DNA of 64,000 nucleotides, taken from Bacillota bacterium. GTDB lineage: Bacteria; Bacillota_I; Bacilli_A; RF39; UBA660. Where the stretch lies: contig DOEC01000035.1 of NCBI GenBank assembly GCA_003524085.1, positions 7,796 through 71,795 on the forward strand, read 5' to 3'. A model generated the notes under the pieces. It was not told the origin of the DNA and did not search any database. It saw only the letters and a program-made list of their open reading frames with translations. Shown piece after piece: positions 35,289 to 48,592 of the stretch (the stretch's first letter is position 1; every line of letters starts with the position of its first letter). A program made the position numbers and the translations under genes.

Positions 35289-37034
35289 ATGTGTGGTATC
35301 ATTGGATACGTAGGAGAAAAGAGATGTAGTATAGATGTAATTATAGATGGGCTTAAGCACCTAGAATACAGGGGTTATGACAGTGCAGGTATAGCTTATG
35401 TTAAAGATAATAATGTTGTAATAGAAAGGGAAGTAGGTAGAATTAGTAATCTAGAGAGTGTTCTTAAAAAAGACACTTCTCATATAGGAATCGGGCATAC
35501 TAGATGGGCAACTCATGGTAAACCAACAAAAGAAAATGCTCATCCTCATAAGGTAGGCAATATTACTTTAGTACATAATGGAATTATTGATAATTTTATG
35601 GAGTTAAAAAGCACTCTAATGAGTGAAGGCTACACTTTCAAAAGTGACACAGATACTGAAGTAGCTGCTGCTTACATTGATTCTTTATATAAAGAAAATA
35701 ACGATATGATTAAGAGTTTAAGTATATGTGTTAATAAGTTTTTAGGTAGTTATGCTTTTGGCATTATTAATGAGTTAGAAACAGATGTATTATATGCTTT
35801 AAGAAAAGATAGTCCATTAATTATTGGTGTAGGAGAAAATGAAAACTTTATTGCAAGTGATGTGCCATCTATTTTAAAGTATACTAATAAGTATATTGAT
35901 ATAGAGAATGACGAAATAGTTAAAATAACAAAAGATAAAGTTACTGTATATGATAAGAATTGCAATATCATTAATAAAGAAATAAGCGTGTTTGAAGGGG
36001 ATGCTAATTTAGTAGAGAAGAATGGTTATGAGACATACATGCTTAAAGAAATACATGAAGAAGCAGAAGTTATAAAGAAGACTAGTGAAGCAAGTATTGA
36101 CTTTGATATAACAAAGTATGATGAAATAGATATAGTCGCTTGTGGAAGTGCTTATCACGCTGGACTAGTTGGTAAATACATGATAGAAAAACTATGTAAC
36201 ATAAAAGTGAATGTATGTATTGCAAGTGAATACCAATACGATAAACATTTTTATAAAGGTAAAACTTTAGTTATAGCAATAAGTCAAAGTGGGGAAACTG
36301 CAGACACAAAAAAATGTGTTAATATTGCAAATGATATGGGTGTTGATACTTTAGGAATTGTTAACGTTAAAGGAAGCAGTATTGCTAGAATATGTAAACA
36401 TGTTATATATACTTTAGCAGGTCCTGAAATAGCAGTGGCAACAACAAAAGCTTATCTAGCACAAATCACAACACTTATACTACTTGCAGTTAAAAATAGT
36501 AAAGAAAAAATAAATACTGAAGACTTGCAAAAACTACCTTATTATATAGAAACTCTAATTAACAAAGATTATACTTCTCTTGCAAATATGCTTTATACAA
36601 AAGACGACATCTACTTTATTGGTAGAGGAATAGATTATGCTCTTTGTATGGAAGGAAGTTTAAAACTAAAAGAAATTAGTTACATTCATAGTGAAGCTTA
36701 TGCAGCAGGAGAGTTAAAACACGGGACAATTTCATTAATTAGTGAAGGAACACCTGTTATAGTATTTGCAACAAGTGATGAGTTATACTTAAAAACAATA
36801 AGTAATGCTAAAGAAGTTAAAGCAAGAGGTGCTTATGTAATACTAGTAACTGATAAAGAAGTTATTAATGAAGGAGTTTATGACGAGTTAATTAGTATTC
36901 CTAAAGTAACTGAAGAATTAAGACCAATCTTAACAATTATACCTTTACAATTAATAAGTTATGAAGTTGCTAAGTTAAGAGATAATGATATTGATAAACC
37001 TAAGAATTTGGCTAAGAGTGTAACAGTGGAGTAA
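35289..37034 (+). CDS. glmS: glutamine--fructose-6-phosphate aminotransferase
   Basis: N-terminal MCGIIGYVG (Ntn Cys1), two SIS domains. Confidence 0.95.
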   Translation: MCGIIGYVGEKRCSIDVIIDGLKHLEYRGYDSAGIAYVKDNNVVIEREVGRISNLESVLKKDTSHIGIGHTRWATHGKPTKENAHPHKVGNITLVHNGIIDNFMELKSTLMSEGYTFKSDTDTEVAAAYIDSLYKENNDMIKSLSICVNKFLGSYAFGIINELETDVLYALRKDSPLIIGVGENENFIASDVPSILKYTNKYIDIENDEIVKITKDKVTVYDKNCNIINKEISVFEGDANLVEKNGYETYMLKEIHEEAEVIKKTSEASIDFDITKYDEIDIVACGSAYHAGLVGKYMIEKLCNIKVNVCIASEYQYDKHFYKGKTLVIAISQSGETADTKKCVNIANDMGVDTLGIVNVKGSSIARICKHVIYTLAGPEIAVATTKAYLAQITTLILLAVKNSKEKINTEDLQKLPYYIETLINKDYTSLANMLYTKDDIYFIGRGIDYALCMEGSLKLKEISYIHSEAYAAGELKHGTISLISEGTPVIVFATSDELYLKTISNAKEVKARGAYVILVTDKEVINEGVYDELISIPKVTEELRPILTIIPLQLISYEVAKLRDNDIDKPKNLAKSVTVE

Positions 37035-37037
37035 GCA

Positions 37038-37766
37038 ATGCTTAAACTCCTATTTAGTAAAGAATATATATTTTTATGGCTAATAGTTATCTTAATACCA
37101 ATTATCCAAAAGAAAGTAATAGGTTTCTTTGGTGAATTTTGGGTTAAACTAGAACTTAAAAAATTAAAGAAAGACTACAAAGTTTTAAATAACGTAATTA
37201 TAAGAACTATAGACAATTCCACTCATCAAATAGATCATATAGTAGTTTCTAAATATAGCATATTTGTAATAGAAACTAAGCAGATAAATGGGTATATTAA
37301 AGGTAACGATTACGACAAAAACTGGACTGTCAAAAGAGGAAAAAACACTTACTATATCAATAACCCAGTTCATCAAAACTATGGACATATAAAAGCTTTG
37401 TCTGAAGTCTTAGGAATAAACACAGATAAATTCATTTCAATTGTATGCATTTCTAGTCAAGCTAAAGTTAGAGTTAACTCAAAGTTTGTAGTTAGAATTT
37501 ATATGCTCGTTAAATATATTAAAAGTTATACAAACGAATTACTTTCAAATTATATAGAAGTGTATAACACTTTAGTTAGTAGAAATATTAAAGGCTACAC
37601 TAATTCTAGAATGCATGTTAAAAGCGTAAAAGAAATAAAGAAAGTAACAGCTAATGACCTAATTAAAAAATGCCCACTTTGCGGCGGAGAACTTGTTAAC
37701 AGACAAAGCAAGTATGGTAGTTTCATAGGCTGTTCTAATTACCCTAGATGCAAGTTCAAAAAGTAA
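37038..37766 (+). CDS. NERD-domain protein with C-terminal topoisomerase-type zinc ribbon
   Basis: NERD core HQIDHIVVSKYSIFVIETKQINGYIKG; CPLCGGELVNRQSKYGSFIGCSNYPRCKF. Confidence 0.75.
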   Translation: MLKLLFSKEYIFLWLIVILIPIIQKKVIGFFGEFWVKLELKKLKKDYKVLNNVIIRTIDNSTHQIDHIVVSKYSIFVIETKQINGYIKGNDYDKNWTVKRGKNTYYINNPVHQNYGHIKALSEVLGINTDKFISIVCISSQAKVRVNSKFVVRIYMLVKYIKSYTNELLSNYIEVYNTLVSRNIKGYTNSRMHVKSVKEIKKVTANDLIKKCPLCGGELVNRQSKYGSFIGCSNYPRCKFKK

Positions 37767-37770
37767 CCAG

Positions 37771-37796
37771 AAGTCTCTTTTCTTAGAGACTTTTTT
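37771..37796 (+). terminator. rho-independent terminator AAGTCTCT-loop-AGAGACTT + TTTT
   Basis: read directly from the sequence. Confidence 0.6.
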
Positions 37797-37863
37797 GAAT
37801 TAACTATAGGATTTTTAAGAAAAGTATAGTATAATATTAGACAAGAGAAGGTGGTTTATATTT

Positions 37864-38130
37864 ATGACTGCTATTATTTTTATAGGTTTCTTAATATTCT
37901 GTTATATTTTTAGAGACTCATATAAAAACAAGCAAGAACCAAAAGAAGAAAAGCCTAAAAAGAAAAACATATCTCCTTATTCTGAAGAAGAAATGGACAA
38001 GTACAACCTAGAAGAATGGCAAAAAGATTTAGTAAGAGAAGGAAGATTTGCACCTTGGAGTTTTAAAAAAAAATCAACTTATAGTGGAAAGTTAAGTGAC
38101 GGACAATATTATAAAGATGACGATGTTTAA
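37864..38130 (+). CDS. small protein with N-terminal TM and charged C-terminal tail
   Basis: RBS AAGGTGG; MTAIIFIGFLIFCYIF. Confidence 0.5.
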   Translation: MTAIIFIGFLIFCYIFRDSYKNKQEPKEEKPKKKNISPYSEEEMDKYNLEEWQKDLVREGRFAPWSFKKKSTYSGKLSDGQYYKDDDV

Positions 38131-38160
38131 TAGATAATTATATATGTGAGGTAAGTTAAA

Positions 38161-39054
38161 ATGATTATTAAAGATAATAGAAAATTAAGACAAAAAGATT
38201 TTAAAAATGAAAAAGAATTACAAACATACTTTGAAGAAAATCTAAATAAAATTTTAGGATACAAATTTGTAAAAACTGAATTTATAGTTGGAAATTATAG
38301 AATAGATTCTTTGGCATTTGATGAAGAAACTAAGGCATTCAGAATTATTGAGTATAAAAATGTTAAAAATCATAGTTTAGTAGATCAGGGCTATACTTAT
38401 TTAAAATTATTGTTAGAAAGAAAAGCCGATTTTGTGCTTAAATTTAATGAAGTATATAATTTAAATTATAAATTATCTGATATTGACTGGAGTCAGTCTA
38501 GAATAATATTCGTTTCGCCAACTTATACTGACTACCAGTTGAATGCTACTGATTTTAAAAATATACCTGTTGACTTAGTTAAAGTCACTAGATATGAAGA
38601 AAATATAGTTGACATAGAATTTATAAAAAAGACAAGTAATGTTAAGATAGATGAAATTAATGATAAACCCGCTCAAAAAGATGTTAATAAAGAAATTAAA
38701 GTATATACTGAAGAAGATCATTTATGTAACTTATCTGAAGAAATTAAAGCGATTTATGAAAATTTGAAAAATAAAATATTAGAACTTGATGACATTGATG
38801 TAGATGTGAAAAAATATTATATTGCATTCAAGGGAAGAAGAAATATAGTTGATATAGAATTCACTCAAAGCAAAATTAGAGTAGATATTAATATGAAAAA
38901 AGGGACTTTGAACGATCCTTTAAATATAACCAAAGATATTTCTAGTATTGGACATTGGGGTAATGGAGACTATAGAGTGGAGATAACAAAAGAAGAGGAA
39001 ATAGATAATGTTATTCCATTAATTAGACAGTCGCTAAAAGTAAATAAAAAATAA
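38161..39054 (+). CDS. NucS/DUF91-like PD-(D/E)xK nuclease-fold protein with C-terminal extension
   Basis: GNYRIDSLAFDEETKAFRIIEYK (D..E.K) preceded by the ELQTYFEENLNKILG pattern typical of RecB-like NucS C-terminal domain. Confidence 0.6.
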   Translation: MIIKDNRKLRQKDFKNEKELQTYFEENLNKILGYKFVKTEFIVGNYRIDSLAFDEETKAFRIIEYKNVKNHSLVDQGYTYLKLLLERKADFVLKFNEVYNLNYKLSDIDWSQSRIIFVSPTYTDYQLNATDFKNIPVDLVKVTRYEENIVDIEFIKKTSNVKIDEINDKPAQKDVNKEIKVYTEEDHLCNLSEEIKAIYENLKNKILELDDIDVDVKKYYIAFKGRRNIVDIEFTQSKIRVDINMKKGTLNDPLNITKDISSIGHWGNGDYRVEITKEEEIDNVIPLIRQSLKVNKK

Positions 39055-39220: not shown

Positions 39221-40792
39221 ATGAATAATCAAAAAGAATTGGAAAGAAATGAGTTACATAAAACAATATGGAAGATGGCAGATGACTTACGTGGTTCTGT
39301 AGATGGATGGGATTTTAAACAATATGTTTTAGGTTTATTATTCTATAGATTTATATCCGAAAATTTAACTAGTTATTTAAATGAAGAAGAAAGAAAAGCA
39401 GGTAACCCTGATTTTGACTATACAAAACTAAGTGATGAAGAAGCTGAATATGGTAGAGAAGATACTCTAGCAGATAAAGGTTTTTATATATTACCTAGTG
39501 AATTATTCTGTAACTTAAGGAAAAGAGCAAGTGAAGATAAAGACTTAAATATTACATTAGGTAAAATACTTGATAACATAGAAAACTCGGCAAAAGGTAC
39601 GGCTTCTGAAGATGACATGAAAGGTTTATTTGATGACTTAGATTTTAATAGTAATAAACTTGGTAACATTGTTGATGATAGAAACACTAAAATTATTAAA
39701 ATGTTAAATGCAATAGGAGATTTAAAACTAGGAGACTATAAAGATAACACAATAGATACATTTGGAGATGCTTACGAATTTTTAATGACTATGTATGCTT
39801 CAAATGCTGGTAAATCAGGTGGAGAATTCTTTACTCCTCAAGAAGTAGGAGAATTACTTGCCAAAATAACTGTCATGGGTAAAACTGAAATAAATAAAGT
39901 ATATGATCCAGCATGTGGTTCAGGTTCACTACTACTTAAATTTGCTAAAGTACTTGGTAAAGACAATATAAAACAAGGTTTCTTTGGACAAGAAATAAAT
40001 ATAACAACATATAACCTTTGTAGAATAAATATGTTTTTACATGATATAAACTATAATAAATTTAGTATAGAACTAGGAGATACTTTACTTCATCCAGCAC
40101 ATGAAGAAGAGGAACCGTTTGACGCGATAGTATCAAATCCACCATATTCAATTAAATGGGCTGGTAAATCAAACCCACTTCTTATAAATGACCATAGATT
40201 TGCACCAGCAGGAATACTTGCGCCAGAGTCTAAAGCAGACCTTGCATTTACTATGCATATGCTATCTTATTTAAGTTCTAAAGGAACAGCAGCAATAGTT
40301 GAATTTCCAGGAGTACTTTATAGAGGTGGAGCAGAAGAAAAAATAAGAAAATACTTAGTTGATAACAACTTTATAGATACAGTCATACAACTACCTAGCG
40401 ACTTATTTTTTGGTACTTCAATAGCAACTTGCATAATAGTACTTAAAAAGAATAAACAAGATAATAACATTTTATTTATAGATGCTTCTAATGAATTTGT
40501 AAGAGGAAGTAATAAGAATAAACTATCCGATGAAAACATAGAAAACATACTAACACTTATTAAAAATAGAACTAATGAAGAAAATAAATCAGTACTAGTA
40601 ACATATGAAGAAATAAGTAACAATAGTTATAACTTGTCAGTTAACTCATATTTAAAAGTTACCTCTGATGAAGAAGAAATAGATATAGTAGAGTTAAATA
40701 AAAAGATAAAAGAAATAGTAGAAAAACAAGATAAAGTTAGGAAAGAATTAGACCAAATTATAGAAGAATTGGAGTCTGATAGTAATGAGTAA
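39221..40792 (+). CDS. hsdM: type I restriction-modification system, N6-adenine DNA methyltransferase subunit
   Basis: HsdM N-terminal domain (LRGSVDGWDFKQYVLGLLFYRFISE), SAM motif DPACGSGS, catalytic NPPY (SNPPYS). Confidence 0.9.
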   Translation: MNNQKELERNELHKTIWKMADDLRGSVDGWDFKQYVLGLLFYRFISENLTSYLNEEERKAGNPDFDYTKLSDEEAEYGREDTLADKGFYILPSELFCNLRKRASEDKDLNITLGKILDNIENSAKGTASEDDMKGLFDDLDFNSNKLGNIVDDRNTKIIKMLNAIGDLKLGDYKDNTIDTFGDAYEFLMTMYASNAGKSGGEFFTPQEVGELLAKITVMGKTEINKVYDPACGSGSLLLKFAKVLGKDNIKQGFFGQEINITTYNLCRINMFLHDINYNKFSIELGDTLLHPAHEEEEPFDAIVSNPPYSIKWAGKSNPLLINDHRFAPAGILAPESKADLAFTMHMLSYLSSKGTAAIVEFPGVLYRGGAEEKIRKYLVDNNFIDTVIQLPSDLFFGTSIATCIIVLKKNKQDNNILFIDASNEFVRGSNKNKLSDENIENILTLIKNRTNEENKSVLVTYEEISNNSYNLSVNSYLKVTSDEEEIDIVELNKKIKEIVEKQDKVRKELDQIIEELESDSNE

Positions 40793-42029
40793 GATAGAAG
40801 AGTTGATAAAAAAGTTATGTCCTAATGGAGTAGAGTATAAAGATTTAAATAGTGTTTTTAAACTTTTTTCTGGAATGAGAGACGTTTCAAATAAATGGAA
40901 AGAAACAGGAAATTGTCAATTTATAGATTATATGAATGCCTATAAAAACCAAAAAATTGATGTAACTAAATTACCTTATGCAACTGTAAAATCGTTAAAT
41001 CAAAACATATTAAAAAGAGGAGATTTGTTATTGACAAGTGCTTCTGAAGTAAGGGAAGAATGTGCAATATGTTCTGTAATAGAAAATGATATTGAAGACA
41101 ACATATTTATGGATGATCATTTATTCGGTTTAAGATTAAAAGATATGTATATAGACAAAATCAATACAACTTTTATAAGCTATTACTTGAATTCTGAACC
41201 ATTCAGATGTAATTTAAAGAAAGCAATACGAGGGGTTACTAGATTTTACATATCAAATGATAATTACTTAAAATTAAAAGTTCCAGTACCACCATTAGAA
41301 GTACAAGAAGAAATAGTAAGAATACTAGATAAGTTTGGAGAGTTGGAGACAGAGTTAGAGGCAGAGTTAGAGGCAAGGAAGAGTCAGTATGAGTTTTGGC
41401 GTGGCAAATTATTAAATAACAATGCGAGTAAAATAGTAAAGCTTGGAGAAGTTTGCCTTGTTAGTTCAGGTGGTACACCTTCTAAAAAAAAGACAGAGTA
41501 TTGGGAAAATGGAGATATAAAATGGCTTGGATCTTCAGTATGTTGTAACAAAAAAACAGTAGAAGAGGTAACAGATAAAATTACAGAGGTAGGATTAAAA
41601 AATTCATCAGCAAAAATTTTAACTCCTAAAACTACCCTTATAGCGATGGTTGGCGCAACAATAGGAAAAGTTGCTTTTCTTGAATTTGAAGCATGTACAA
41701 ACCAAAATGTTGCCAGCTTAATTCCAAAAGATACATCATTTCTTAATTCGGACTATTTATTTTATGCATGTAGAAACCTATATTCACAATTTGTTGAATA
41801 TTCAAAAGGAAAATTTTCAATTGCTAGTCTTGGATATATTAAAAATTTAGAAATAAAAGTACCTTCATTACAAGAACAAGAAAGAATAGTTAACATACTT
41901 GATAAATTTGATAAACTAGTTAATGATATTTCAGAAGGTTTACCTGCTGAAATAGAAGCAAGAAGAAAACAATACGAGTATTATAGAAATAAACTTTTAA
42001 GTTTTGAGGAGTTGGTTGTTAATGAGTAA
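40785..42029 (+). CDS. hsdS: type I R-M specificity subunit
   Basis: two TRDs separated by conserved central helix LEVQEEIVRILDKF..ELEAELEARKSQYEFWRGKLL and C-terminal repeat of same. Confidence 0.9.
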   Translation: MSKIEELIKKLCPNGVEYKDLNSVFKLFSGMRDVSNKWKETGNCQFIDYMNAYKNQKIDVTKLPYATVKSLNQNILKRGDLLLTSASEVREECAICSVIENDIEDNIFMDDHLFGLRLKDMYIDKINTTFISYYLNSEPFRCNLKKAIRGVTRFYISNDNYLKLKVPVPPLEVQEEIVRILDKFGELETELEAELEARKSQYEFWRGKLLNNNASKIVKLGEVCLVSSGGTPSKKKTEYWENGDIKWLGSSVCCNKKTVEEVTDKITEVGLKNSSAKILTPKTTLIAMVGATIGKVAFLEFEACTNQNVASLIPKDTSFLNSDYLFYACRNLYSQFVEYSKGKFSIASLGYIKNLEIKVPSLQEQERIVNILDKFDKLVNDISEGLPAEIEARRKQYEYYRNKLLSFEELVVNE

Positions 42030-43164
42030 ATTCAACTCAGTTGAAGAAGTAAAGAATGAATTAATAAGAATACTTAACAAGGTTGTTAAAGATAAGAAAA
42101 GTGGAAAAGAAAAAATTAATGTTGTGTTACTTTATGCCTTTAATGGAACAGGCAAAACTAGAATTTCCGAATTAATAACTGAAGAGGAAGAAAATAAGTG
42201 TTTATTTTATAACGCATATGTTGAAGACTACTTTACTTGGAATAATAGAGAAAAAGAATTTCTAATTGATATGAATGCTGATTTATTTAGAATAATAAGA
42301 ACTCAAGAATTAGAAAATGATATTATAGATAATTTTAAAAGCTTAGTTGAAACTAAACTAGAGCCTGTATTTGATATACCAGACGCAAAAATCACATTTC
42401 AACTAGCAACAGGAGACTCTAATTCTACACAAAATGTAAAGATATCTAAAGGCGAAGAAAGTATGTTTATATGGTCTGTATTTTACTCAATATTAAACTT
42501 ATCTTTAGAAATGTTAGATGAAGAGTTGGAAAATAGAAGTTGCGAAGATTTTAATTTACTAAGATATATAATTGTTGATGACCCAGTATCTTCAATAGAT
42601 GATACTAAAATCATTGCAATTGTTGATCAATTTACAGAATACTTAAATAGATTAAAAAATGTTGATATTAAAAATGATAATAAGTTAAGTATTTTAATTA
42701 CCACACATCATCCATTATTTTTTAATATAATGCAAAATTACTTTAAAAATAAATCAAATGATAAGTTTAATGCAGAATATTATGTACTAATGAGAGGTGA
42801 AAATAATACTTTAGAACTTAATGAACAAAGAGGGGACTCCCCATTCGCTTATCATTTATCACTTATAGAAGAACTTGTTACAGTAGTCAATGAAGATAAT
42901 ATAAAGAAGTATCATTATAATATTTTAAGAAGTTTATTTGAAAAGACTTCAAACTACTTAGGTTATACCAACTGGGCTGACTGTATTAGTGATGAAGAAG
43001 ATAAGAGTTTAATTATTAAAGAGGTTAATCAAAATAGTCATAATAGATTATCTGACATTGAATATTGTGAGTTATCAGAAGAAGATAAAGAGTTATTTAA
43101 GAGAGTGTTTAAAAGATTTTTAGAGGATTTTAACTGGAAGTCAAAAGAAAAAGTTAAGGAGTAA
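42022..43164 (+). CDS. prrC: PrrC-like anticodon nuclease (ABC-type ATPase head + C-terminal ACNase motif) embedded in the type I R-M operon
   Basis: Walker A AFNGTGKT; ABC signature ISKGEESMF; Walker B/D-loop IIVDDPVSSIDD; H-loop ITTHH; C-terminal R-x3-E...(33 aa)...H (LRSLFE ... QNSHN) matching PrrC R320/E324/H356 spacing; position between hsdS and hsdR. Confidence 0.65.
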   Translation: MSKFNSVEEVKNELIRILNKVVKDKKSGKEKINVVLLYAFNGTGKTRISELITEEEENKCLFYNAYVEDYFTWNNREKEFLIDMNADLFRIIRTQELENDIIDNFKSLVETKLEPVFDIPDAKITFQLATGDSNSTQNVKISKGEESMFIWSVFYSILNLSLEMLDEELENRSCEDFNLLRYIIVDDPVSSIDDTKIIAIVDQFTEYLNRLKNVDIKNDNKLSILITTHHPLFFNIMQNYFKNKSNDKFNAEYYVLMRGENNTLELNEQRGDSPFAYHLSLIEELVTVVNEDNIKKYHYNILRSLFEKTSNYLGYTNWADCISDEEDKSLIIKEVNQNSHNRLSDIEYCELSEEDKELFKRVFKRFLEDFNWKSKEKVKE

Positions 43165-43170
43165 TGTGTA

Positions 43171-43803
43171 ATGAAAAAAAGTAAAATAATGATATTTTGT
43201 TTGTTAGTTTTTTCTATAATTTGTTTAATAATCTATGTAATATTAGCGTTATGTGTTTCTTGTCCAATTGTTGAAACTATAGTTCTAGGCCTTTTAACTA
43301 GTGCAGTAGTTACACTTTTTGTATCTGTTTTAGACTATTGTTGTTTCAGAGATGAAGAGATACAAAAGTTTAAATTAGAAATAAGTAAATACTTTTGTTA
43401 TTTGATGGACTTTAAAAAAGACATTAATGATATATTAGTTATGTTTGATAAAAGACAACATATTAAAGTCGAAGATTATGTAAAAAGTAACATTAACACT
43501 TTAAAATATTTGTGTGTAGGTAAACCACAATTCTTATCTTTTGATTTTATACTCAAAGATAAGAACTTTACAAAGACAACTAATTACTTATATGATTTAA
43601 CATTTGGAACTAAACTAATTGAAATTTATAATAAGAAAAAAATTATAACATTAGAAGGGTATAAAAGTTATCTAAACGATTTATTAAAAGAAATTAATAA
43701 AGAAGTAGATACAATTAATAATGAGATGAAGAATATTAAGAAGTTTAAGATCGCTAAGGAATGGGAAAAATTTACTGAAAGAGAAAATGTATTTGGGAGT
43801 TGA
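43171..43803 (+). CDS. 2-TM membrane protein of unknown function between prrC-like gene and hsdR
   Basis: MKKSKIMIFCLLVFSIICLIIYVILAL and second helix; no recognizable domain. Confidence 0.55.
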   Translation: MKKSKIMIFCLLVFSIICLIIYVILALCVSCPIVETIVLGLLTSAVVTLFVSVLDYCCFRDEEIQKFKLEISKYFCYLMDFKKDINDILVMFDKRQHIKVEDYVKSNINTLKYLCVGKPQFLSFDFILKDKNFTKTTNYLYDLTFGTKLIEIYNKKKIITLEGYKSYLNDLLKEINKEVDTINNEMKNIKKFKIAKEWEKFTERENVFGS

Positions 43804-43809
43804 TAATTA

Positions 43810-46800
43810 ATGGTTAATATAATAAGTGAAAGTGATAACTATACAGTAGTTACTGAGTATAAAGGTTTAGAAAAGAAAAGTGGTACTTATCAAAGTGAAG
43901 ATGCTTTAGAAAAAGAATTAATTAAAACATTAATGGAACAAGGTTATGAGTATTTAACTTTTAATAGTGAAAGTGAATTAATTAGTAATTTAAGAGATAA
44001 ACTTGGTAAACTTAATAATCATGTGTTTAGCGATAATGAGTGGAATAATTTATTTAATAATGTAATAGCTAATAAGAATAATCATATACTTGAGAAAACT
44101 AAGATAATTCAAGAAGATTATAAACAGCCTTTAAGACTTGATAATGGAGAGTTAATTAATGTTTATTTAATAGATAAAGATAATATACATAATAATTGTC
44201 TACAAGTAATTAATCAGTATGAAAATAATGATGGTAATCATGAAAATAGGTATGATGTAACTATACTAGTAAATGGTTTACCTTTAGTACATATTGAACT
44301 TAAAAGAAGAGGAATAGACTTAAGAGAAGCATTTAATCAAATAGATAGATATCAAAGAGACTCATTCTGGGCTGGAAGTGGTTTATATGAATATATTCAA
44401 ATATTTATTATAAGTAATGGAACATATACTAAGTATTATTCTAATACTACAAGAGATTTACACTTGAAAACAGGTACTAAGAAAACTTCTAATACATTTG
44501 AATTTACTTCTTATTGGTCAGACCAAAATAATAATTCAATTATTGATTTAATAGATTTTGCTAAAACTTTCTTAGCAAAACATACTATCTTAAATGTACT
44601 TTGTAAGTACTGTGTATTTTCAACTGATGGCACTCTTTTAGTTATGAGACCTTATCAAATAGTTGCTACTGAAAAGATTATTAATAAAATAGAAATATCT
44701 CATAATTATAAATTATATGGAAGTATTAAATCAGGTGGATATATTTGGCATACTACAGGTAGTGGTAAAACACTTACAAGTTTTAAAACAAGTCAACTTG
44801 CTAGTAAGTTAAGTTTTATTGATAAAGTTGTATTTGTTGTTGATAGAAAAGACTTAGACTATCAAACAATGAAAGAGTATGATAAATTTAAAGAAGGATG
44901 CGCTAATAGTAACTCTAATACTAAAATACTAGAGTCTCAACTAGCTGATAATGATTCTAAAATAATAATAACTACTATACAAAAATTAACTAATTATATA
45001 AAGAAATTTCCTAAACATAATGCATTTGATAAACAAGTAGTATTTATATTTGATGAATGTCATAGAAGTCAATTTGGAGATATGCACAAAGCTATTATAT
45101 CTAAGTTTAAGTATTACTATATATTTGGTTTTACTGGTACTCCTATATTTAAAGAAAACGCTATAACTAGAAAAAGTATAGTCTTAACAACTGAGCAAGT
45201 ATTTGGAGAAAAACTACATACTTATACTATTGTAAATGCTATAAATGATAAAAATGTATTACCTTTTAGATATGAGTTTGTAGAAAATATTGGTAGAAAA
45301 AGTGATATAGAAGATGAAATGGGTTTTAAAATTGATAAAAATAGAGTATTTAATAACCCAGTTAGAATAGAACAAATAACTAAGTATATTATCAATAACT
45401 TTGCTAGAAAAACTAAAAATAATGAAACTTATTTATTTAGTACTTTAGATAATGTTAAAGAAGTTGCTAAAGATAATAACGCTGTTGAAGTTAAGAAAAA
45501 GTATTATGTAAATGGATTTAATTCAATATTTGCTACTTCTTCAATTGAAGCTGCTAAAAAGTACTATGAATGTTTTAAAAATATACCTAACAATTTGAAA
45601 GTCGCTTTAATATATAGTTATGGTGTTAATGATGAAGTTATCACTTGCTTTGATGATGAAAACTCTGAGTCTGCGGAAAATCTAAGTAAAAGTGATAGAG
45701 ATTATTTAGACTATGCCATTAAAGACTATAATAAAATGTTTGGAACTACTTATGATACATCTAATGAAAAATTTCAAAACTATTATAAAGATGTTTCTCT
45801 TAGAATGAAGAATAGAGAAATAGACATTTTAATTGTTGCTAATATGTTTTTAACTGGTTTTGACGCTAAGACATTAAATACTTTATGGGTTGATAAAAAT
45901 CTTAATTATCACGGACTTATTCAAGCATTCTCTAGAACTAATAGAATACTTAATTCTGTTAAAACATTTGGTAATATAGTATGTTTTAGAGATTTGGAAA
46001 AGGAACTTAATGATGCATTAGGTTTATTTGGAGATGCTGAAGCGTCTAGCATCGTTTTGTTAAAACCGTATGAAGACTATTTAAATGGCTATGATGATGG
46101 TAAACATAGTTTTGTAGGTTATATAACTTTAGTTAATGAACTTAAAAGTAAGTTTAATCCAGGTGAACTAATAGTTGGAGAGAGTAAACAAATTGAGTTT
46201 ATCAAGTTATTTGGACAAATATTAAAAGCTAGAAATATTCTTTCTACTTTTGATAAGTTTAGTAATGATGATATATTAGACGCTAGAGACGAACAAAATT
46301 ATAGAAGTACATATATTGAACTAAATAGTCAGTATAAACAGAGAATGAAAGCAGATAAACTTGATGTTAGTAATGATATAGTCTTTGAAATGGAATTAGT
46401 TAAACAAATAGAAGTTAATGTTGACTATATTTTAAATTTAATTAAAGAGTATCATGATGGTAATATGGAAAATAAAGAGTTATTGATTACTATTAATAGA
46501 ATGGTTATGTCCAGTCCTGACTTAAGAAATAAGGTTGACTTAATTGATGAGTTTATTAGAAGTTTGAATAAAGATAGTAATGTATATAATGACTTTAATT
46601 CTTTTATGAATAGTAAAAAGAAAGAAGAGTTAGACAAAATAATTTCAGAAGAGAACTTGGATAAAGAGAAAACTTATGTCTTCGTAAAAAGAAGTTTTGA
46701 AAACGGAAGAGTAGAAACTAATGGTACAGAACTATCATCTATATTACCAGCAATGAGTAGGTTTGAAGCAGATAAAAAAAGAACAAAGAAGAAAGAGAGT

Positions 46801-46863
46801 GTTGTTGAGAAGCTAATTGGTTTCTTTGATAAATTCTTTAGTATTAGTAATTCAGAATTTTAG
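43810..46863 (+). CDS. hsdR: type I restriction enzyme R subunit
   Basis: N-terminal nuclease ILVNGLPLVHIELK; SF2 motifs HTTGSGKT, DECHRSQ; 1017 aa. Confidence 0.9.
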   Translation: MVNIISESDNYTVVTEYKGLEKKSGTYQSEDALEKELIKTLMEQGYEYLTFNSESELISNLRDKLGKLNNHVFSDNEWNNLFNNVIANKNNHILEKTKIIQEDYKQPLRLDNGELINVYLIDKDNIHNNCLQVINQYENNDGNHENRYDVTILVNGLPLVHIELKRRGIDLREAFNQIDRYQRDSFWAGSGLYEYIQIFIISNGTYTKYYSNTTRDLHLKTGTKKTSNTFEFTSYWSDQNNNSIIDLIDFAKTFLAKHTILNVLCKYCVFSTDGTLLVMRPYQIVATEKIINKIEISHNYKLYGSIKSGGYIWHTTGSGKTLTSFKTSQLASKLSFIDKVVFVVDRKDLDYQTMKEYDKFKEGCANSNSNTKILESQLADNDSKIIITTIQKLTNYIKKFPKHNAFDKQVVFIFDECHRSQFGDMHKAIISKFKYYYIFGFTGTPIFKENAITRKSIVLTTEQVFGEKLHTYTIVNAINDKNVLPFRYEFVENIGRKSDIEDEMGFKIDKNRVFNNPVRIEQITKYIINNFARKTKNNETYLFSTLDNVKEVAKDNNAVEVKKKYYVNGFNSIFATSSIEAAKKYYECFKNIPNNLKVALIYSYGVNDEVITCFDDENSESAENLSKSDRDYLDYAIKDYNKMFGTTYDTSNEKFQNYYKDVSLRMKNREIDILIVANMFLTGFDAKTLNTLWVDKNLNYHGLIQAFSRTNRILNSVKTFGNIVCFRDLEKELNDALGLFGDAEASSIVLLKPYEDYLNGYDDGKHSFVGYITLVNELKSKFNPGELIVGESKQIEFIKLFGQILKARNILSTFDKFSNDDILDARDEQNYRSTYIELNSQYKQRMKADKLDVSNDIVFEMELVKQIEVNVDYILNLIKEYHDGNMENKELLITINRMVMSSPDLRNKVDLIDEFIRSLNKDSNVYNDFNSFMNSKKKEELDKIISEENLDKEKTYVFVKRSFENGRVETNGTELSSILPAMSRFEADKKRTKKKESVVEKLIGFFDKFFSISNSEF

Positions 46864-47172
46864 TAATGTGAGAAGTCTATTGTTTAATAGATTTCTTTTT
46901 TTATACTTTAACAAAAATTTTATAATCTTCAGTAGATAATTGACACAAGTTTATCATCTTGTTATAATTTAGTTGCTATGGATAGTATACTATGAAGAAA
47001 AACACCGTTGTTGGTAAGGCATTGTGCCAATTGTAAAAGAAGAAAATAGTGAATATTTTACAAAAGGAGAAAAAGAGGGTGTTCTTGAAACATTATCTTT
47101 CTGTCCAGTTTATGATAATGAAATTGATGATGAACGTATGGATAAATTTTTCTATATAAAGGAGTGATTTAA

Positions 47173-47811
47173 ATGTCAAAGTATAAGTTATTATTAGATG
47201 AGTCAGGTTCTTTTGAAAATAAAGACGAAAAATATGTAATAATAGGTGGGGTTCTCTTTAAAGAAGAATATCAACCTGAACTTGAAAAGATTTTTGTTCC
47301 ATTGCATACTCACTTACGTAATGTTTTAAAATGCACTGAGTTACATGCTACTAGAAATAAAGAACTTTTTGATTATTTGGCTCCTATTTTGGGAGCTTGT
47401 GAATACATAACTCCTATCGTTTTTGTTATTGACAAAAAGAGTAGCTTTATTTTTGATAATTATGATCATAAAAGTTTTAAATATAATAAAGCAATTCAAC
47501 ATTTAATTAAAAAAATGATTAAGAATGGATTAGTCAATAATGATGATGAACTATATATAAAAATAGATAACATTAATCTAAATAGAGATGAAACTGATAA
47601 TTTAACAAATTGGTTGCCAAAAAATATGAGTATTGTTAAAGAGGTAAAACAAGGTGACTCTAGAGATTATATTGCTTTGCAGCTTGCTGATATAATTGTT
47701 AATAATTTTAGTAAAAAAACAACTTGTAAACTAAATTCAGTAAGAGTAAAAATGTTATCTCCAAAGATTTATTGTTTTTTAAATAAAACTGTAAAAGAGT
47801 ATTTTATATAA
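47173..47811 (+). CDS. DUF3800-family protein
   Basis: N-terminal LLLDESGSF...GGVLF and C-terminal QLADI motifs. Confidence 0.65.
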   Translation: MSKYKLLLDESGSFENKDEKYVIIGGVLFKEEYQPELEKIFVPLHTHLRNVLKCTELHATRNKELFDYLAPILGACEYITPIVFVIDKKSSFIFDNYDHKSFKYNKAIQHLIKKMIKNGLVNNDDELYIKIDNINLNRDETDNLTNWLPKNMSIVKEVKQGDSRDYIALQLADIIVNNFSKKTTCKLNSVRVKMLSPKIYCFLNKTVKEYFI

Positions 47812-47869
47812 CTATTGCTTTGTTTTTGATGAATTAAGTGTTATAATTATCTTACATTCAGGAGGTTAT

Positions 47870-48592
47870 ATGAGAAATGAAGTGCAAGAAATATATATAA
47901 ATTTAGATGATTCTGGTAAATTAAGTTCTAAAGAAGACATTAGTGTGTATGGCGGTGTCGTATTTTTAAGTAAAAAAGAGAAAGATAAATTTATAACTCA
48001 GTATAAAAAGATTATAAATGAGGTCAAGTGTGAATACTGCAAGATATGTAATCACGCCTGTCCTGAGATTAAAAATACAAATATTAAGCCAGAACATAAG
48101 CGTTGGTTAATGAATTACATTAAAAATTATTTTGTAGTTGGGTTAATAATTGAAAATAAAAAGGTGTATGAAGAAATATTACAAAGTAAGGCATCAAAAG
48201 GAAGATTTACTGATTATGCTATTCGTAGGCTTATTAAAGAAATATTAAAGTCACTAATTAAAGAAGGCAAAATCGATCCATATAAGCCTGTTAAGATTGT
48301 ATTAAATATAGACCAACAAAGTACAAAAAGTAATGGATATTATAATTTACGTGATGGTATATTAGAAGAGCTTAAATATGGAATATCTGCCTACAATTAT
48401 TCTGTTAAGAGAAAGAAAATAGTTTACTCTGATTTAGATATTTTAGTTACTTATCAAGTATCTGCTAAGAGTTATGTTATTCAAGCAGCTGATTTACTAG
48501 CAGGTACAATAAGAAGAACTGTACTTGACAACATTGAAAACTATGGAAGAGCTTTATCAAAATTTGTGGACTTAAAAATAAAACTTCCATAA
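47870..48592 (+). CDS. DUF3800-family protein (paralog of preceding gene)
   Basis: LDDSGKL...GGVVF and IQAADLLAG motifs. Confidence 0.65.
   Translation: MRNEVQEIYINLDDSGKLSSKEDISVYGGVVFLSKKEKDKFITQYKKIINEVKCEYCKICNHACPEIKNTNIKPEHKRWLMNYIKNYFVVGLIIENKKVYEEILQSKASKGRFTDYAIRRLIKEILKSLIKEGKIDPYKPVKIVLNIDQQSTKSNGYYNLRDGILEELKYGISAYNYSVKRKKIVYSDLDILVTYQVSAKSYVIQAADLLAGTIRRTVLDNIENYGRALSKFVDLKIKLP

What the first reader, a model, noticed from the sequence alone, without database searches (positions are those of the whole stretch)
42022..43803. PrrC-like anticodon nuclease plus an extra 2-TM protein embedded between hsdS and hsdR
The ORF has ABC-ATPase motifs (AFNGTGKT; ISKGEESMF; IIVDDPVSSIDD; ITTHH) and a C-terminal R-x3-E...33aa...H triad spaced as in E. 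coli PrrC. It also sits in the classical hsdM-hsdS-prrC-hsdR position, which indicates a latent tRNA-cleaving suicide module masked by the R-M complex. Unlike the described prr locus, a second inserted gene encoding a 210-aa 2-TM protein of unknown function follows it before hsdR. Neither this extra partner nor a PrrC in an AT-rich Gram-positive anaerobe has been described.
Basis: partly seen in the sequence, partly recalled or inferred. Interest (0 to 1): 0.6.

Follow-up and report, generated by a model that had tools for sequence, protein, structure and literature searches.

The report
PrrC guard nuclease plus orphan membrane gene
A restriction-modification operon of an uncultured gut Firmicutes bacterium carries a textbook PrrC "backup" tRNA-cutting suicide enzyme (ordinary), followed by a small, genuinely conserved two-helix membrane protein from a tiny undescribed family that also turns up in a sister operon next to a different, non-PrrC partner.

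Summary
Genes 39221-46863 form one tightly packed operon: hsdM-hsdS-prrC-2TM-hsdR.

**PrrC call: right.**
- The 380-aa ORF (42022-43164) matches the PADLOC PrrC model at E = 3e-93.
- It aligns end to end with E. coli PrrC (32% identity, E = 7e-59).
- It keeps every NTPase motif and the Arg303-Glu307-His340 triad, all invariant in a 30-sequence PrrC alignment.
- Its flanking HsdR and HsdM are EcoprrI-like type IC subunits.

**Novelty claims: weaker than stated.**
- PrrC homologues in Gram-positives (Streptococcus mutans, S. equi) were described in 2006-2010.
- Extra genes embedded in prr loci (RhuM, Fic/Doc) are also known. I found extra embedded ORFs in 27 of 72 prr loci.

**What is undescribed: the 210-aa 2-TM protein (43171-43803).**
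- It has its own Shine-Dalgarno sequence, is intact in every strain read, and has dN/dS 0.35-0.43.
- It matches nothing significant in Pfam, NCBIfam, PADLOC or PHROGs and has no informative fold match.
- Only four remote relatives exist among 1.8 billion representatives.
- It is absent from 80 other prr loci.
- A 35%-identical homologue sits in a 98%-identical hsdM/hsdR backbone beside an unrelated 373-aa protein instead of PrrC. It is therefore not PrrC-specific.

Its function is unknown. The PrrC is ordinary; the membrane add-on is modestly interesting.

The parts
39221..40792 (+). hsdM, type I (IC-like) methyltransferase subunit
   Evidence: TIGR00497 hsdM E = 4.8e-226; Pfam N6_Mtase + HsdM_N; 55% identical to the HsdM of the E. 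coli prr locus.
40785..42029 (+). hsdS, specificity subunit with two target-recognition domains; highly allelic between strains
   Evidence: Pfam Methylase_S, two stretches. Only 45-47% identical between strains whose hsdM and hsdR are 98% identical.
42022..43164 (+). prrC, 380-aa anticodon-nuclease-family protein (ABC-type NTPase N-domain plus HEPN-type RNase C-domain)
   Evidence: PADLOC PrrC E = 3.4e-93, model positions 18-352 of 372. 32% identity, E = 7e-59 to E. coli PrrC over the full length. dN/dS 0.08-0.10. GenBank HBP13531.1 is annotated 'hypothetical protein'.
42136..42159 (+). Walker A motif AFNGTGKT (followed by Arg47, equivalent to Eco R48)
   Evidence: G44, K45, T46 and R47 are invariant in 30 PrrCs. 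Eco K46, T47 and R48 are essential (PMC3025547).
42208..42249 (+). PrrC-specific aromatic motif YNAYVEDYFTWNNR (Eco W93-D94-N95 region)
   Evidence: D69, F71, W73 and N75 are invariant. Position 74 is D or N among homologues.
42439..42459 (+). ABC signature (C-loop) KISKGEE
   Evidence: K140, S142, E145 and E146 are invariant. Equivalent to Eco K168-LSKGE173 (PMC3025547).
42568..42603 (+). Walker B DD plus D-loop SSID(D)
   Evidence: D186, D187, S190, S191, D193 and D194 are invariant.
42697..42711 (+). H-loop ITTHH
   Evidence: T227, T228 and H229 are invariant. Equivalent to Eco T250 and H251.
42829..42855 (+). RGDSPFAYH: counterpart of the E. coli Lys-anticodon-recognising peptide KYGDSNKSFSY plus His295, two residues shorter
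   Evidence: F275, Y277 and H278 are invariant. The substrate cannot be inferred.
42928..43041 (+). Nuclease active-site region: R303, E307 and H340 (equivalent to Eco R320, E324, H356), preceded by H298 at 42913-42915 (Eco H315)
   Evidence: All are invariant in 30 PrrCs. Eco R349 corresponds to Lys and Eco N321 to Ser here; both positions vary among homologues.
43171..43803 (+). Embedded 210-aa membrane protein: N-terminal two-helix hairpin plus a ~150-aa cytoplasmic all-helical domain; member of a tiny undescribed family
   Evidence: No significant Pfam, PADLOC, NCBIfam or PHROGs match. Only relatives at 85% identity or more among 5.8 billion clusters. Four remote relatives among 1.8 billion representatives. 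dN/dS 0.35-0.43. AF2 pLDDT 83, all helices. Intact in all ~35 loci read. GenBank HBP13532.1 'hypothetical protein'.
43189..43335 (+). TM1 (res. 7-28) - VSCP loop - TM2 (res. 33-55); the N-terminus MKKSK is positively charged, so N-in/C-in topology is inferred
   Evidence: Hydropathy and charge count; translation; AF2 helices 2-28 and 32-90.
43591..43608 (+). YDLTFG, the best-conserved motif of the 2-TM family
   Evidence: Y141, T144, F145 and G146 are invariant across 8 family members down to 26% identity.
43810..46863 (+). hsdR, type IC restriction/translocase subunit
   Evidence: Pfam HSDR_N, SWI2_SNF2/ResIII, T1R_D3-like and EcoR124_C. TIGR00348 E = 1e-163. 42% identical over the full length to the HsdR of the E. 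coli prr locus.

Best explanation
Bases 39221-46863 are a prr-type locus: a type IC restriction-modification operon with an embedded PrrC anticodon nuclease.

Inferred by homology with E. coli PrrC/EcoprrI: PrrC is made constitutively and held latent by the HsdMSR complex. When a phage anti-restriction factor disables the R-M enzyme, PrrC switches on through its GTP/dTTP-sensing ABC-type NTPase domain. The HEPN-type site (R303/E307/H340) then cuts a host tRNA anticodon loop and aborts the infection.

The extra 210-aa gene is a real, co-transcribed, translationally coupled membrane protein: an N-in/C-in two-helix hairpin with a cytoplasmic helical domain. It belongs to a tiny, lineage-restricted family that travels inside the hsdS-hsdR slot of this R-M backbone next to whichever embedded 'guard' protein is present (PrrC here, an unrelated 373-aa protein in a sister locus).

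My best guess is that it is an accessory of the embedded abortive-infection cassette acting at the membrane, either as a second membrane-damaging effector or as a membrane tether or modulator. I do not think it is a PrrC-specific partner.

Sub-confidences: PrrC family membership and guard logic about 0.9; the 2-TM ORF being a genuine selected gene about 0.95; the accessory-of-the-cassette role about 0.35.
For: PrrC:
- PADLOC PrrC E = 3.4e-93 and no other PADLOC hit.
- Full-length alignment to E. coli PrrC, E = 7e-59. The E. coli sequence carries the diagnostic KYGDSNKSFSY peptide and lies in an hsdM-hsdS-prrC-hsdR locus.
- All NTPase motifs, H278, H298, R303, E307 and H340 are invariant in 30 PrrCs.
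- Type IC flanks.
- Purifying selection, omega 0.08-0.10.
- 72 of 80 related loci from other species hold hsdM, prrC and hsdR together, nearly all in the order hsdM-hsdS-prrC-hsdR.

2-TM gene:
- Shine-Dalgarno sequence and 6-nt spacers on both sides.
- Intact at 210-212 aa in every locus read.
- Omega 0.35-0.43, and 0.33 to a 35%-identical homologue.
- Confident helical model, pLDDT 83.
- The homologue P0141 is embedded between hsdS and hsdR of a backbone whose hsdM and hsdR are 98.4% identical to the window's. There it lies next to a 373-aa protein that is not PrrC.
- That 373-aa family itself occupies the PrrC slot (hsdS-X-hsdR) in gut Clostridia.
- A third homologue, P0144, lies between a type I hsdM and a GmrSD enzyme.
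- An unrelated but architecturally similar protein (N-terminal TM plus a ~180-aa helical domain) is embedded in three other prr loci.
Against: - No biochemical data exist for this PrrC. Relative to E. coli PrrC it carries D94N, N224T, H225K, E262Y, N321S and R349K at positions reported essential in E. coli (PMC3025547). The three positions I checked in the alignment (D94, N321, R349) vary among homologues; I did not check the other three.
- Nothing for the 2-TM protein goes beyond guilt by embedding.
- 76 of the 80 other prr loci have no ORF between prrC and hsdR, and none of the 80 holds a member of the 2-TM family. The six loci read for the 373-aa family also lack it, so neither guard needs it.
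- Two remote relatives (P0143, P0145) sit on short contigs with uninformative neighbours.
- SLATT similarity is far below threshold.
- The family has only about 5 distinct branches, so context statistics are weak.
Confidence: 0.6

Rival explanations
1. The 2-TM gene is an autonomous hitch-hiking defence or exclusion gene, for example a membrane-level superinfection-exclusion or abortive-infection protein. It uses the R-M operon only as a safe, co-transferred expression site and has no functional link to PrrC or HsdMSR.
For: - Autonomous systems embedded in type I R-M operons are documented: TgvAB in V. cholerae VPI-2 (PMC11411939) and 'guilt by embedding' with 3,231 embedded families (bioRxiv 10.1101/2024.01.29.577857).
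- 27 of 72 prr loci carry unrelated extra genes such as RhuM, Fic, Bro-N and Shedu.
- The 2-TM family is found with different neighbours.
- The glmS-cysS interval is a cassette-swapping defence hotspot.
Against: In both context-rich cases the gene is immediately adjacent to the protein in the PrrC slot, inside the hsdS-hsdR junction, with tight translational coupling. It was never seen alone away from type I genes where context was readable.
Confidence: 0.3
2. The 2-TM protein is a dedicated PrrC regulator, either an extra silencer (antitoxin) or an activator.
For: It lies immediately downstream of prrC and is co-inherited with it in all ~35 loci of this lineage.
Against: - Its 35%-identical homologue is paired with a protein that has no detectable similarity to PrrC: BLASTP E > 1, hhalign probability 0.4%.
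- 0 of 80 other prr loci contain a family member.
- PrrC silencing is classically provided by the R-M complex itself (PMC1484252).
Confidence: 0.07
3. The 380-aa ORF is a generic AAA_13/AAA_21-type ABC ATPase, or an RloC, without PrrC-type nuclease function.
For: Pfam reports only AAA_13, at a modest E = 6e-11. GenBank calls it a hypothetical protein.
Against: - The PADLOC PrrC model covers both domains.
- The C-domain aligns to E. coli PrrC with R, E, H, H295, H315 and N352 conserved.
- At 380 aa it has no room for RloC's long coiled-coil/zinc-hook insert.
- It is R-M embedded, as PrrC is and RloC rarely is (PMC3458546 abstract).
Confidence: 0.02
4. The 210-aa ORF is a spurious or decaying open frame in an AT-rich spacer.
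For: No database annotation. AT-rich genomes have few GC-rich stop-free artefacts, but they do produce long hydrophobic frames.
Against: - dN/dS is well below 1 in four comparisons.
- It has its own Shine-Dalgarno sequence.
- Length and motif are conserved in relatives down to 26% identity.
- It is intact in every strain.
- The structure model is confident.
Confidence: 0.01

Closest known systems
E. coli prr locus (EcoprrI hsdM-hsdS-prrC-hsdR) and PrrC anticodon nuclease
   Same: Same gene order, with prrC between hsdS and hsdR. Type IC HsdR and HsdM (42% and 55% identity). PrrC is 32% identical over its full length, with all NTPase motifs and the R-E-H triad.
   Different: One extra gene (the 2-TM protein) lies between prrC and hsdR. 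The LARP tRNA-Lys recognition peptide is two residues shorter and diverged. Six residues essential in E. coli PrrC are substituted. The host is an uncultured gut Bacillota, and the activating phage factor is unknown.
Streptococcus mutans PrrC (Gram-positive homologue, toxic in yeast; PMC3025547)
   Same: A Gram-positive PrrC linked to a type I R-M system. It shows that PrrC function is not confined to Proteobacteria.
   Different: I did not retrieve its sequence for a direct comparison. Other Streptococcus prr loci in my scan (L063, L065, L075) have no gene between prrC and hsdR.
RloC (PrrC-related wobble-nucleotide-excising ACNase)
   Same: ABC-ATPase plus HEPN nuclease with the same R-E-H triad (PMC2610378, PMC3025547).
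   Different: RloC is much larger, has a Rad50-like coiled-coil/zinc hook and is rarely R-M linked (PMC3458546). The window protein is 380 aa, R-M embedded, and hits only the PrrC model.
Other genes embedded in type I R-M or prr loci: rlo genes of Campylobacter, RhuM and Fic/Doc next to PrrC (PMC3710099), TgvAB (PMC11411939), 'guilt-by-embedding' candidates (10.1101/2024.01.29.577857)
   Same: An additional gene embedded inside an hsd operon, co-transferred with it, and presumably defence-related.
   Different: The 2-TM family matches none of the PADLOC v2 embedded candidates or any other library. Most extra genes in prr loci sit between hsdM and hsdS; insertion between prrC and hsdR is rare, seen in 4 of ~78 loci and none of them membrane proteins.
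Small membrane accessory or effector proteins of abortive-infection systems (SLATT/2TM effectors of CBASS and retron Ec48; Csx27/Csx28 with the HEPN RNase Cas13b) - from my own knowledge, a lead only
   Same: A short N-terminal TM hairpin plus a helical cytoplasmic domain, encoded next to a HEPN RNase guard.

Membership tests
PrrC anticodon nuclease | Significant full-length match to a PrrC profile | tested here: met
   PADLOC PDLC02360 PrrC E = 3.4e-93, residues 15-378 against model positions 18-352 of 372; no competing PADLOC family. The same model scores E. coli PrrC at 1.5e-147.
PrrC anticodon nuclease | ABC-type NTPase N-domain: Walker A AxxGxGKT(R), W-[DN]-N box, K-x-SKGE signature, Walker B DD, D-loop SSxD, H-loop TTH | tested here: met
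   All are present and invariant in a 30-sequence alignment that includes E. coli PrrC. Residue roles are from PMC3025547.
PrrC anticodon nuclease | C-domain Arg-Glu-His catalytic triad (Eco R320/E324/H356) | tested here: met
   R303, E307 and H340 align to the E. coli triad and are invariant.
PrrC anticodon nuclease | Other nuclease-domain residues essential in E. coli PrrC (H295, H315, N321, R349, N352) | tested here: inconclusive
   H278 (=H295), H298 (=H315) and N336 (=N352) are conserved. N321 is Ser and R349 is Lys here. Both positions vary (N/S/A/G/T and R/K) among the 30 homologues, although R349K and the tested N321 substitutions (Ala, Gln, Asp) were inactive in E. coli PrrC (PMC3025547).
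PrrC anticodon nuclease | Gene embedded in an EcoprrI-like type IC hsdMSR locus | tested here: met
   The gene lies between hsdS and hsdR. HsdR has the EcoR124_C domain and is 42% identical to the HsdR of the E. coli prr locus; HsdM is 55% identical.
PrrC anticodon nuclease | Compact size (~360-400 aa) without a Rad50-like coiled-coil/zinc hook (distinguishes it from RloC) | tested here: met
   380 aa, collinear with the 396-aa E. coli PrrC and with no large insert.
PrrC anticodon nuclease | tRNA-Lys recognition peptide (LARP, KYGDSNKSFSY) | tested here: inconclusive
   The window has RGDS--PFAY: D, S, F and Y are retained, with a two-residue deletion. The literature says only a subset of PrrCs keep this motif and the others probably have different substrates (PMC1484252).
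PrrC anticodon nuclease | Latent ACNase activity masked by the R-M complex and unleashed by an anti-restriction factor | not testable with these tools
   Requires expression, tRNA cleavage and phage assays.
SLATT / 2TM abortive-infection effectors (candidate family for the 210-aa protein) | Significant match to a SLATT profile | tested here: not met
   NCBIfam SLATT_1 best E = 0.01 at 15.8 bits (cut-off 41), in 3 of 8 family members. No Pfam SLATT hit.
SLATT / 2TM abortive-infection effectors (candidate family for the 210-aa protein) | Two N-terminal TM helices followed by a helical region | tested here: met
   Hydropathy and the AF2 model. This architecture is not specific to SLATT.
SLATT / 2TM abortive-infection effectors (candidate family for the 210-aa protein) | Linkage to a nucleotide-signal or reverse-transcriptase sensor module | tested here: not met
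   No such gene lies in the operon or in the flanking cassettes.
Type I R-M-embedded accessory ('rlo'/guilt-by-embedding) genes | Located inside an hsd operon, same strand, co-transcribed | tested here: met
   6-nt intergenic spacers on both sides and no terminator-like site within the operon before 46033. A homologue is embedded in a second hsd operon.

The most novel reading that the evidence does not exclude
The 2-TM protein defines a new family of membrane-anchored accessory proteins that plug into the 'guard slot' of type IC R-M operons and work with interchangeable soluble guards (PrrC here, an uncharacterised 373-aa family elsewhere). It would add either a membrane-level killing arm or a membrane-localisation or sensing step to the classical PrrC backup system. 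On this reading the 373-aa family would be a new PrrC-analogous guard of type I R-M.
Probability: 0.25. Interest if true: 0.55.

Novelty: new variant of a known kind. Interest (0 to 1): 0.3.

Why it matters
PrrC is the founding example of a 'guard' immune protein that watches a restriction enzyme. Finding one more homologue adds little.

The useful point is that, within one gut Bacillota lineage, the hsdS-hsdR junction behaves as a swappable slot. It holds PrrC + 2-TM in one allele and 2-TM' + an unknown 373-aa protein in another, on a 98%-identical R-M backbone.

That gives a clean natural experiment for two questions:
- Do guards of type I R-M recruit a membrane component?
- Is the 373-aa family, which is widespread in gut Clostridia in exactly the PrrC position, a new guard?

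If the membrane protein proves to be a passive passenger, the locus is simply an ordinary prr system.

Tried and rejected
- **PDB sequence search with the PrrC:** no hit at E <= 0.01.
- **Foldseek afdb50:** not available.
- **hhalign, 373-aa family against PrrC:** probability 0.4%. Not related.
- **hhalign, 2-TM family against the TM-anchored proteins of L024-L026:** probability 0.25%. Analogous architecture only.
- **Pfam, NCBIfam and PHROGs on all 8 family members at permissive E-values:** only compositional hits (CT214 inclusion-membrane protein, MNHE, SLATT_1 at E = 0.01, a holin PHROG at E = 0.02). Rejected as evidence.
- **Metagenome scans for more 2-TM relatives:**
  - the full family alignment was too divergent to make patterns;
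  - the distant trio found nothing;
  - the close trio found only the same locus.
- **Neighbours of the remote relatives P0143 and P0145:** no similarity to anything in hand.
- **Genome scan:** it did not return the window's own species (best hit 46%). The organism is known only as 'Firmicutes bacterium' MAG, protein HBP13531.1.
- **JGI's name 'glutaredoxin' for the 2-TM protein**: has no support and was disregarded.


Full report
**1. What is there**

The window carries five same-strand genes with almost no spacing:

| Gene | Coordinates |
|---|---|
| hsdM | 39221-40792 |
| hsdS | 40785-42029 |
| 380-aa ORF (PrrC-like) | 42022-43164 |
| 210-aa ORF (2-TM) | 43171-43803 |
| hsdR | 43810-46863 |

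- hsdS and the 380-aa ORF overlap by 8 nt (ATGAGTAA), with GAGGAG upstream.
- The next two junctions are 6-nt spacers preceded by AAGGAG and GGGAG.
- The only terminator-like site on the + strand of the operon lies at 46033, inside hsdR.
- This is one operon with translational coupling.

**2. The 380-aa ORF is a PrrC**

- Pfam sees only AAA_13 (E = 6e-11).
- The PADLOC PrrC model matches at E = 3.4e-93 across both domains, and no other PADLOC family matches.
- To obtain the E. coli prototype I searched plasmids by tblastn. I took the 'anticodon nuclease' of an E. coli P1-like IncY plasmid, which lies in an hsdM-hsdS-prrC-hsdR locus.
- That protein is 396 aa and contains the diagnostic LARP peptide KYGDSNKSFSY (motif from PMC3025547).
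- BLASTP of the window protein against it gives 32% identity over the full length, E = 7e-59.

In an alignment of 30 PrrCs that are 32-50% identical to the window protein, the invariant columns include (window numbering, with the E. coli equivalent):

| Window residues | E. coli equivalent / motif |
|---|---|
| G44, K45, T46, R47 | Walker A plus R48 |
| W73, N75 | W93, N95 |
| K140, S142, E145 | K168 and the signature motif |
| D186, D187 | Walker B |
| S190, S191, D193 | D-loop |
| T227, T228, H229 | H-loop |
| N235 | N257 |
| F275, Y277, H278 | F292, Y294, H295 |
| H298 | H315 |
| R303, E307, H340 | R320, E324, H356 (triad) |

- The published mutagenesis (PMC1484252, PMC3025547) identifies these as the essential residues.
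- Six positions essential in E. coli PrrC differ here: D94N, N224T, H225K, E262Y, N321S and R349K.
- The three I checked in the alignment (D94, N321, R349) vary among the 30 homologues too. I did not check the other three.
- The gene is under strong purifying selection (omega 0.08-0.10). I therefore do not read the substitutions as decay.
- At 380 aa with no insert, it is not RloC.
- HsdR (EcoR124_C domain; 42% identical to the E. coli prr-locus HsdR) and HsdM (55% identical) are type IC, as PrrC requires.
The triad is conserved.

**3. How typical is the locus?**

A pattern scan of one genome per GTDB species returned 572 PrrC relatives, of which I kept 80 loci.
- They come from Clostridia, Lachnospiraceae, Bacilli, Lactobacillus, Streptococcus, Veillonella, Bacteroidota, Proteobacteria, CPR and even archaeal MAGs.
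- By tblastn mapping, 72 of the 80 hold hsdM, prrC and hsdR together, nearly all in the order hsdM-hsdS-prrC-hsdR.
- A PrrC in a low-GC Gram-positive anaerobe is therefore not new. S. mutans and S. equi PrrCs were in the 2006 alignment, and S. mutans PrrC kills yeast.

Extra embedded genes are also common: 27 of 72 complete loci have at least one.
- Most sit between hsdM and hsdS.
- They are mainly RhuM-family, with Bro-N/Fic and Shedu-like proteins. Anantharaman et al. noted RhuM and Fic/Doc in prr loci in 2013.
- The general 'guilt-by-embedding' picture is in Payne et al. 2024, with TgvAB as a worked example.

Insertion specifically between prrC and hsdR is rare. Four loci have one (Fic-like 291 aa, 148 aa, 118 aa, 79 aa), and none is a membrane protein.

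**4. The 210-aa protein**

*It is a real gene.*
- It has its own Shine-Dalgarno sequence.
- It is intact at 210-212 aa in all ~35 strain loci read.
- dN/dS is 0.35-0.43 against alleles at 84-91% identity, and 0.33 against a 35%-identical homologue.
- That is clearly selected, but it evolves 4-8 times faster at the protein level than hsdR, hsdM or prrC in the same comparisons.

*Its architecture is simple.*
- It has two hydrophobic helices (res. 7-28 and 33-55), a basic N-terminus (MKKSK) and a 4-residue loop. N-in/C-in topology with a ~150-aa cytoplasmic domain is inferred.
- AlphaFold gives a confident all-helical model (pLDDT 83, pTM 0.74). TM2 continues as a long helix to residue 90.

*It matches nothing known.*
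- No library recognises it.
- The weak SLATT_1 hits (E = 0.01) are far below threshold.

*The family is tiny.*
- A word-indexed search of 5.8 billion clusters finds only relatives at 85% identity or more.
- Full HMMER over 1.8 billion representatives finds four remote relatives at 30-36% identity.
- These share a Y-[DEY]-[LV]-T-F-G motif.
- A family HMM finds no member in the other 80 prr loci.

**5. The informative context**

The 36%-identical relative P0141 is also embedded between hsdS and hsdR.
- The hsdM and hsdR around it are 98.4% identical to the window's (dS 0.12), and the locus likewise lies next to cysS.
- The inner cassette differs: a half-size hsdS, then the 2-TM homologue, then a 373-aa protein.
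- That 373-aa protein has no similarity to PrrC by BLASTP, PADLOC or hhalign.

The 373-aa family has about 144 relatives and no Pfam, NCBIfam or PADLOC match.
- In gut Clostridia it sits exactly in the PrrC slot (hsdM-hsdS-X-hsdR, with overlapping stops and starts) and without any 2-TM gene.

A third relative, P0144, lies between a divergent type I hsdM and a GmrSD enzyme.
- The other two relatives are on contigs too short to interpret.

Three prr loci of gut Alphaproteobacteria MAGs carry a non-homologous but similarly built protein between hsdM and hsdS: an N-terminal TM plus a ~180-aa helical domain, 202-226 aa in all.

So the 2-TM protein is associated with the guard slot of this type IC backbone rather than with PrrC itself. 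Both guards usually function without it.

**6. Mechanism**

*PrrC.* I adopt the established model by homology (inferred, not shown here).
- PrrC is held latent by HsdMSR.
- It is activated when an anti-restriction factor disables the enzyme.
- Activation depends on NTP and dTTP acting through the ABC domain.
- The HEPN site then makes an anticodon-loop cut.
- The substrate is open, because the LARP counterpart is RGDS--PFAY.

*2-TM protein.* The evidence supports only that it is a co-expressed, membrane-anchored, fast-evolving accessory of the embedded cassette.
- Whether it is a second, membrane-damaging effector, a tether or modulator, or an autonomous passenger cannot be decided computationally.
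- I rank accessory (0.35) slightly above autonomous (0.30), and a PrrC-specific regulator as unlikely (0.07).

**7. Origin and population context**

- The PrrC and the 2-TM protein are identical to HBP13531.1 and HBP13532.1 of a 'Firmicutes bacterium' MAG. Both are annotated as hypothetical.
- They occur on hundreds of human-gut metagenome contigs.
- The operon lies in a glmS-cysS defence hotspot whose flanking cassettes and hsdS alleles swap between strains.
- In L101 glmS is only 78% identical (dS 1.4) while the R-M cassette is 95-98% identical. This indicates horizontal exchange of the cassette between related species.

**8. Verdict**

- The PrrC interpretation is correct but ordinary.
- The Gram-positive claim is wrong.
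- The 'extra partner' is real and undescribed, but it is not PrrC-specific and its function is unknown.
- I rate the locus a new variant of a known kind, with modest interest.

Noticed in passing
[not shown]
   Followed up: partly
window 37038-39054 and 47173-48592: The glmS-cysS interval is a defence-island hotspot. The window holds a NERD + Zn-ribbon protein (37038-37766), a PDC-S18/DUF5655 protein (38161-39054) and two DUF3800 paralogues (47173-47811, 47870-48592). Other strains have alternative cassettes instead (HI_0787_N-like, SocA_Panacea, HipA_2, DUF3037, DUF4268, AbiD).
   Followed up: partly
window 40785-42029 vs L101:5621-6859 and L104:5729-6859: hsdS alleles are only 45-47% identical between strains whose hsdM and hsdR are 98% identical, which indicates target-recognition-domain swapping. 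L012 has a half-size hsdS (212 aa). L104 has an additional 218-aa gene between hsdM and hsdS.
   Followed up: no
L101:872-2617 vs window 35289-37034: glmS is 78% identical (dS 1.4) while the adjacent hsdM-prrC-2TM-hsdR cassette is 95-98% identical (dS about 0.2). The R-M/PrrC cassette has evidently been exchanged between related species at the same chromosomal site.
   Followed up: partly
L024:6216-6896, L025:6148-6798, L026:5627-6235: Three prr loci of gut Alphaproteobacteria MAGs carry a 202-226-aa protein between hsdM and hsdS, beside RhuM in L024. It has one N-terminal TM helix and a K/E-rich helical domain. It is not detectably homologous to the window's 2-TM family (hhalign probability 0.25%) but has similar size and architecture.
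   Followed up: partly
L039:9135-10010; L029:2043-3173: Other embedded passengers in prr loci: a Bro-N + Fic protein between prrC and hsdR (L039) and a Shedu SduA_C-like protein between hsdM and hsdS (L029). RhuM-family genes of about 330-347 aa are the commonest insert between hsdM and hsdS.
   Followed up: partly
L011 (E. coli plasmid CP057875.1, 64961-71975 of the record): A canonical prr locus, whose PrrC carries the LARP peptide, is carried on a P1-like IncY plasmid-prophage. It lies next to phd/doc and a gene annotated as 3'-phosphatase.
   Followed up: no
window 46940-46968: A perfect sigma-70 consensus (TTGACA-17-TATAAT with an extended TG) lies just downstream of hsdR. It probably drives the DUF3800 pair as a separate unit.
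   Followed up: no
L044 and L058, L090: Rare alternative gene orders in prr loci: hsdM...prrC-hsdS-hsdR (L044), hsdS-prrC-hsdR-hsdM (L058) and hsdR-prrC (L090).
   Followed up: no
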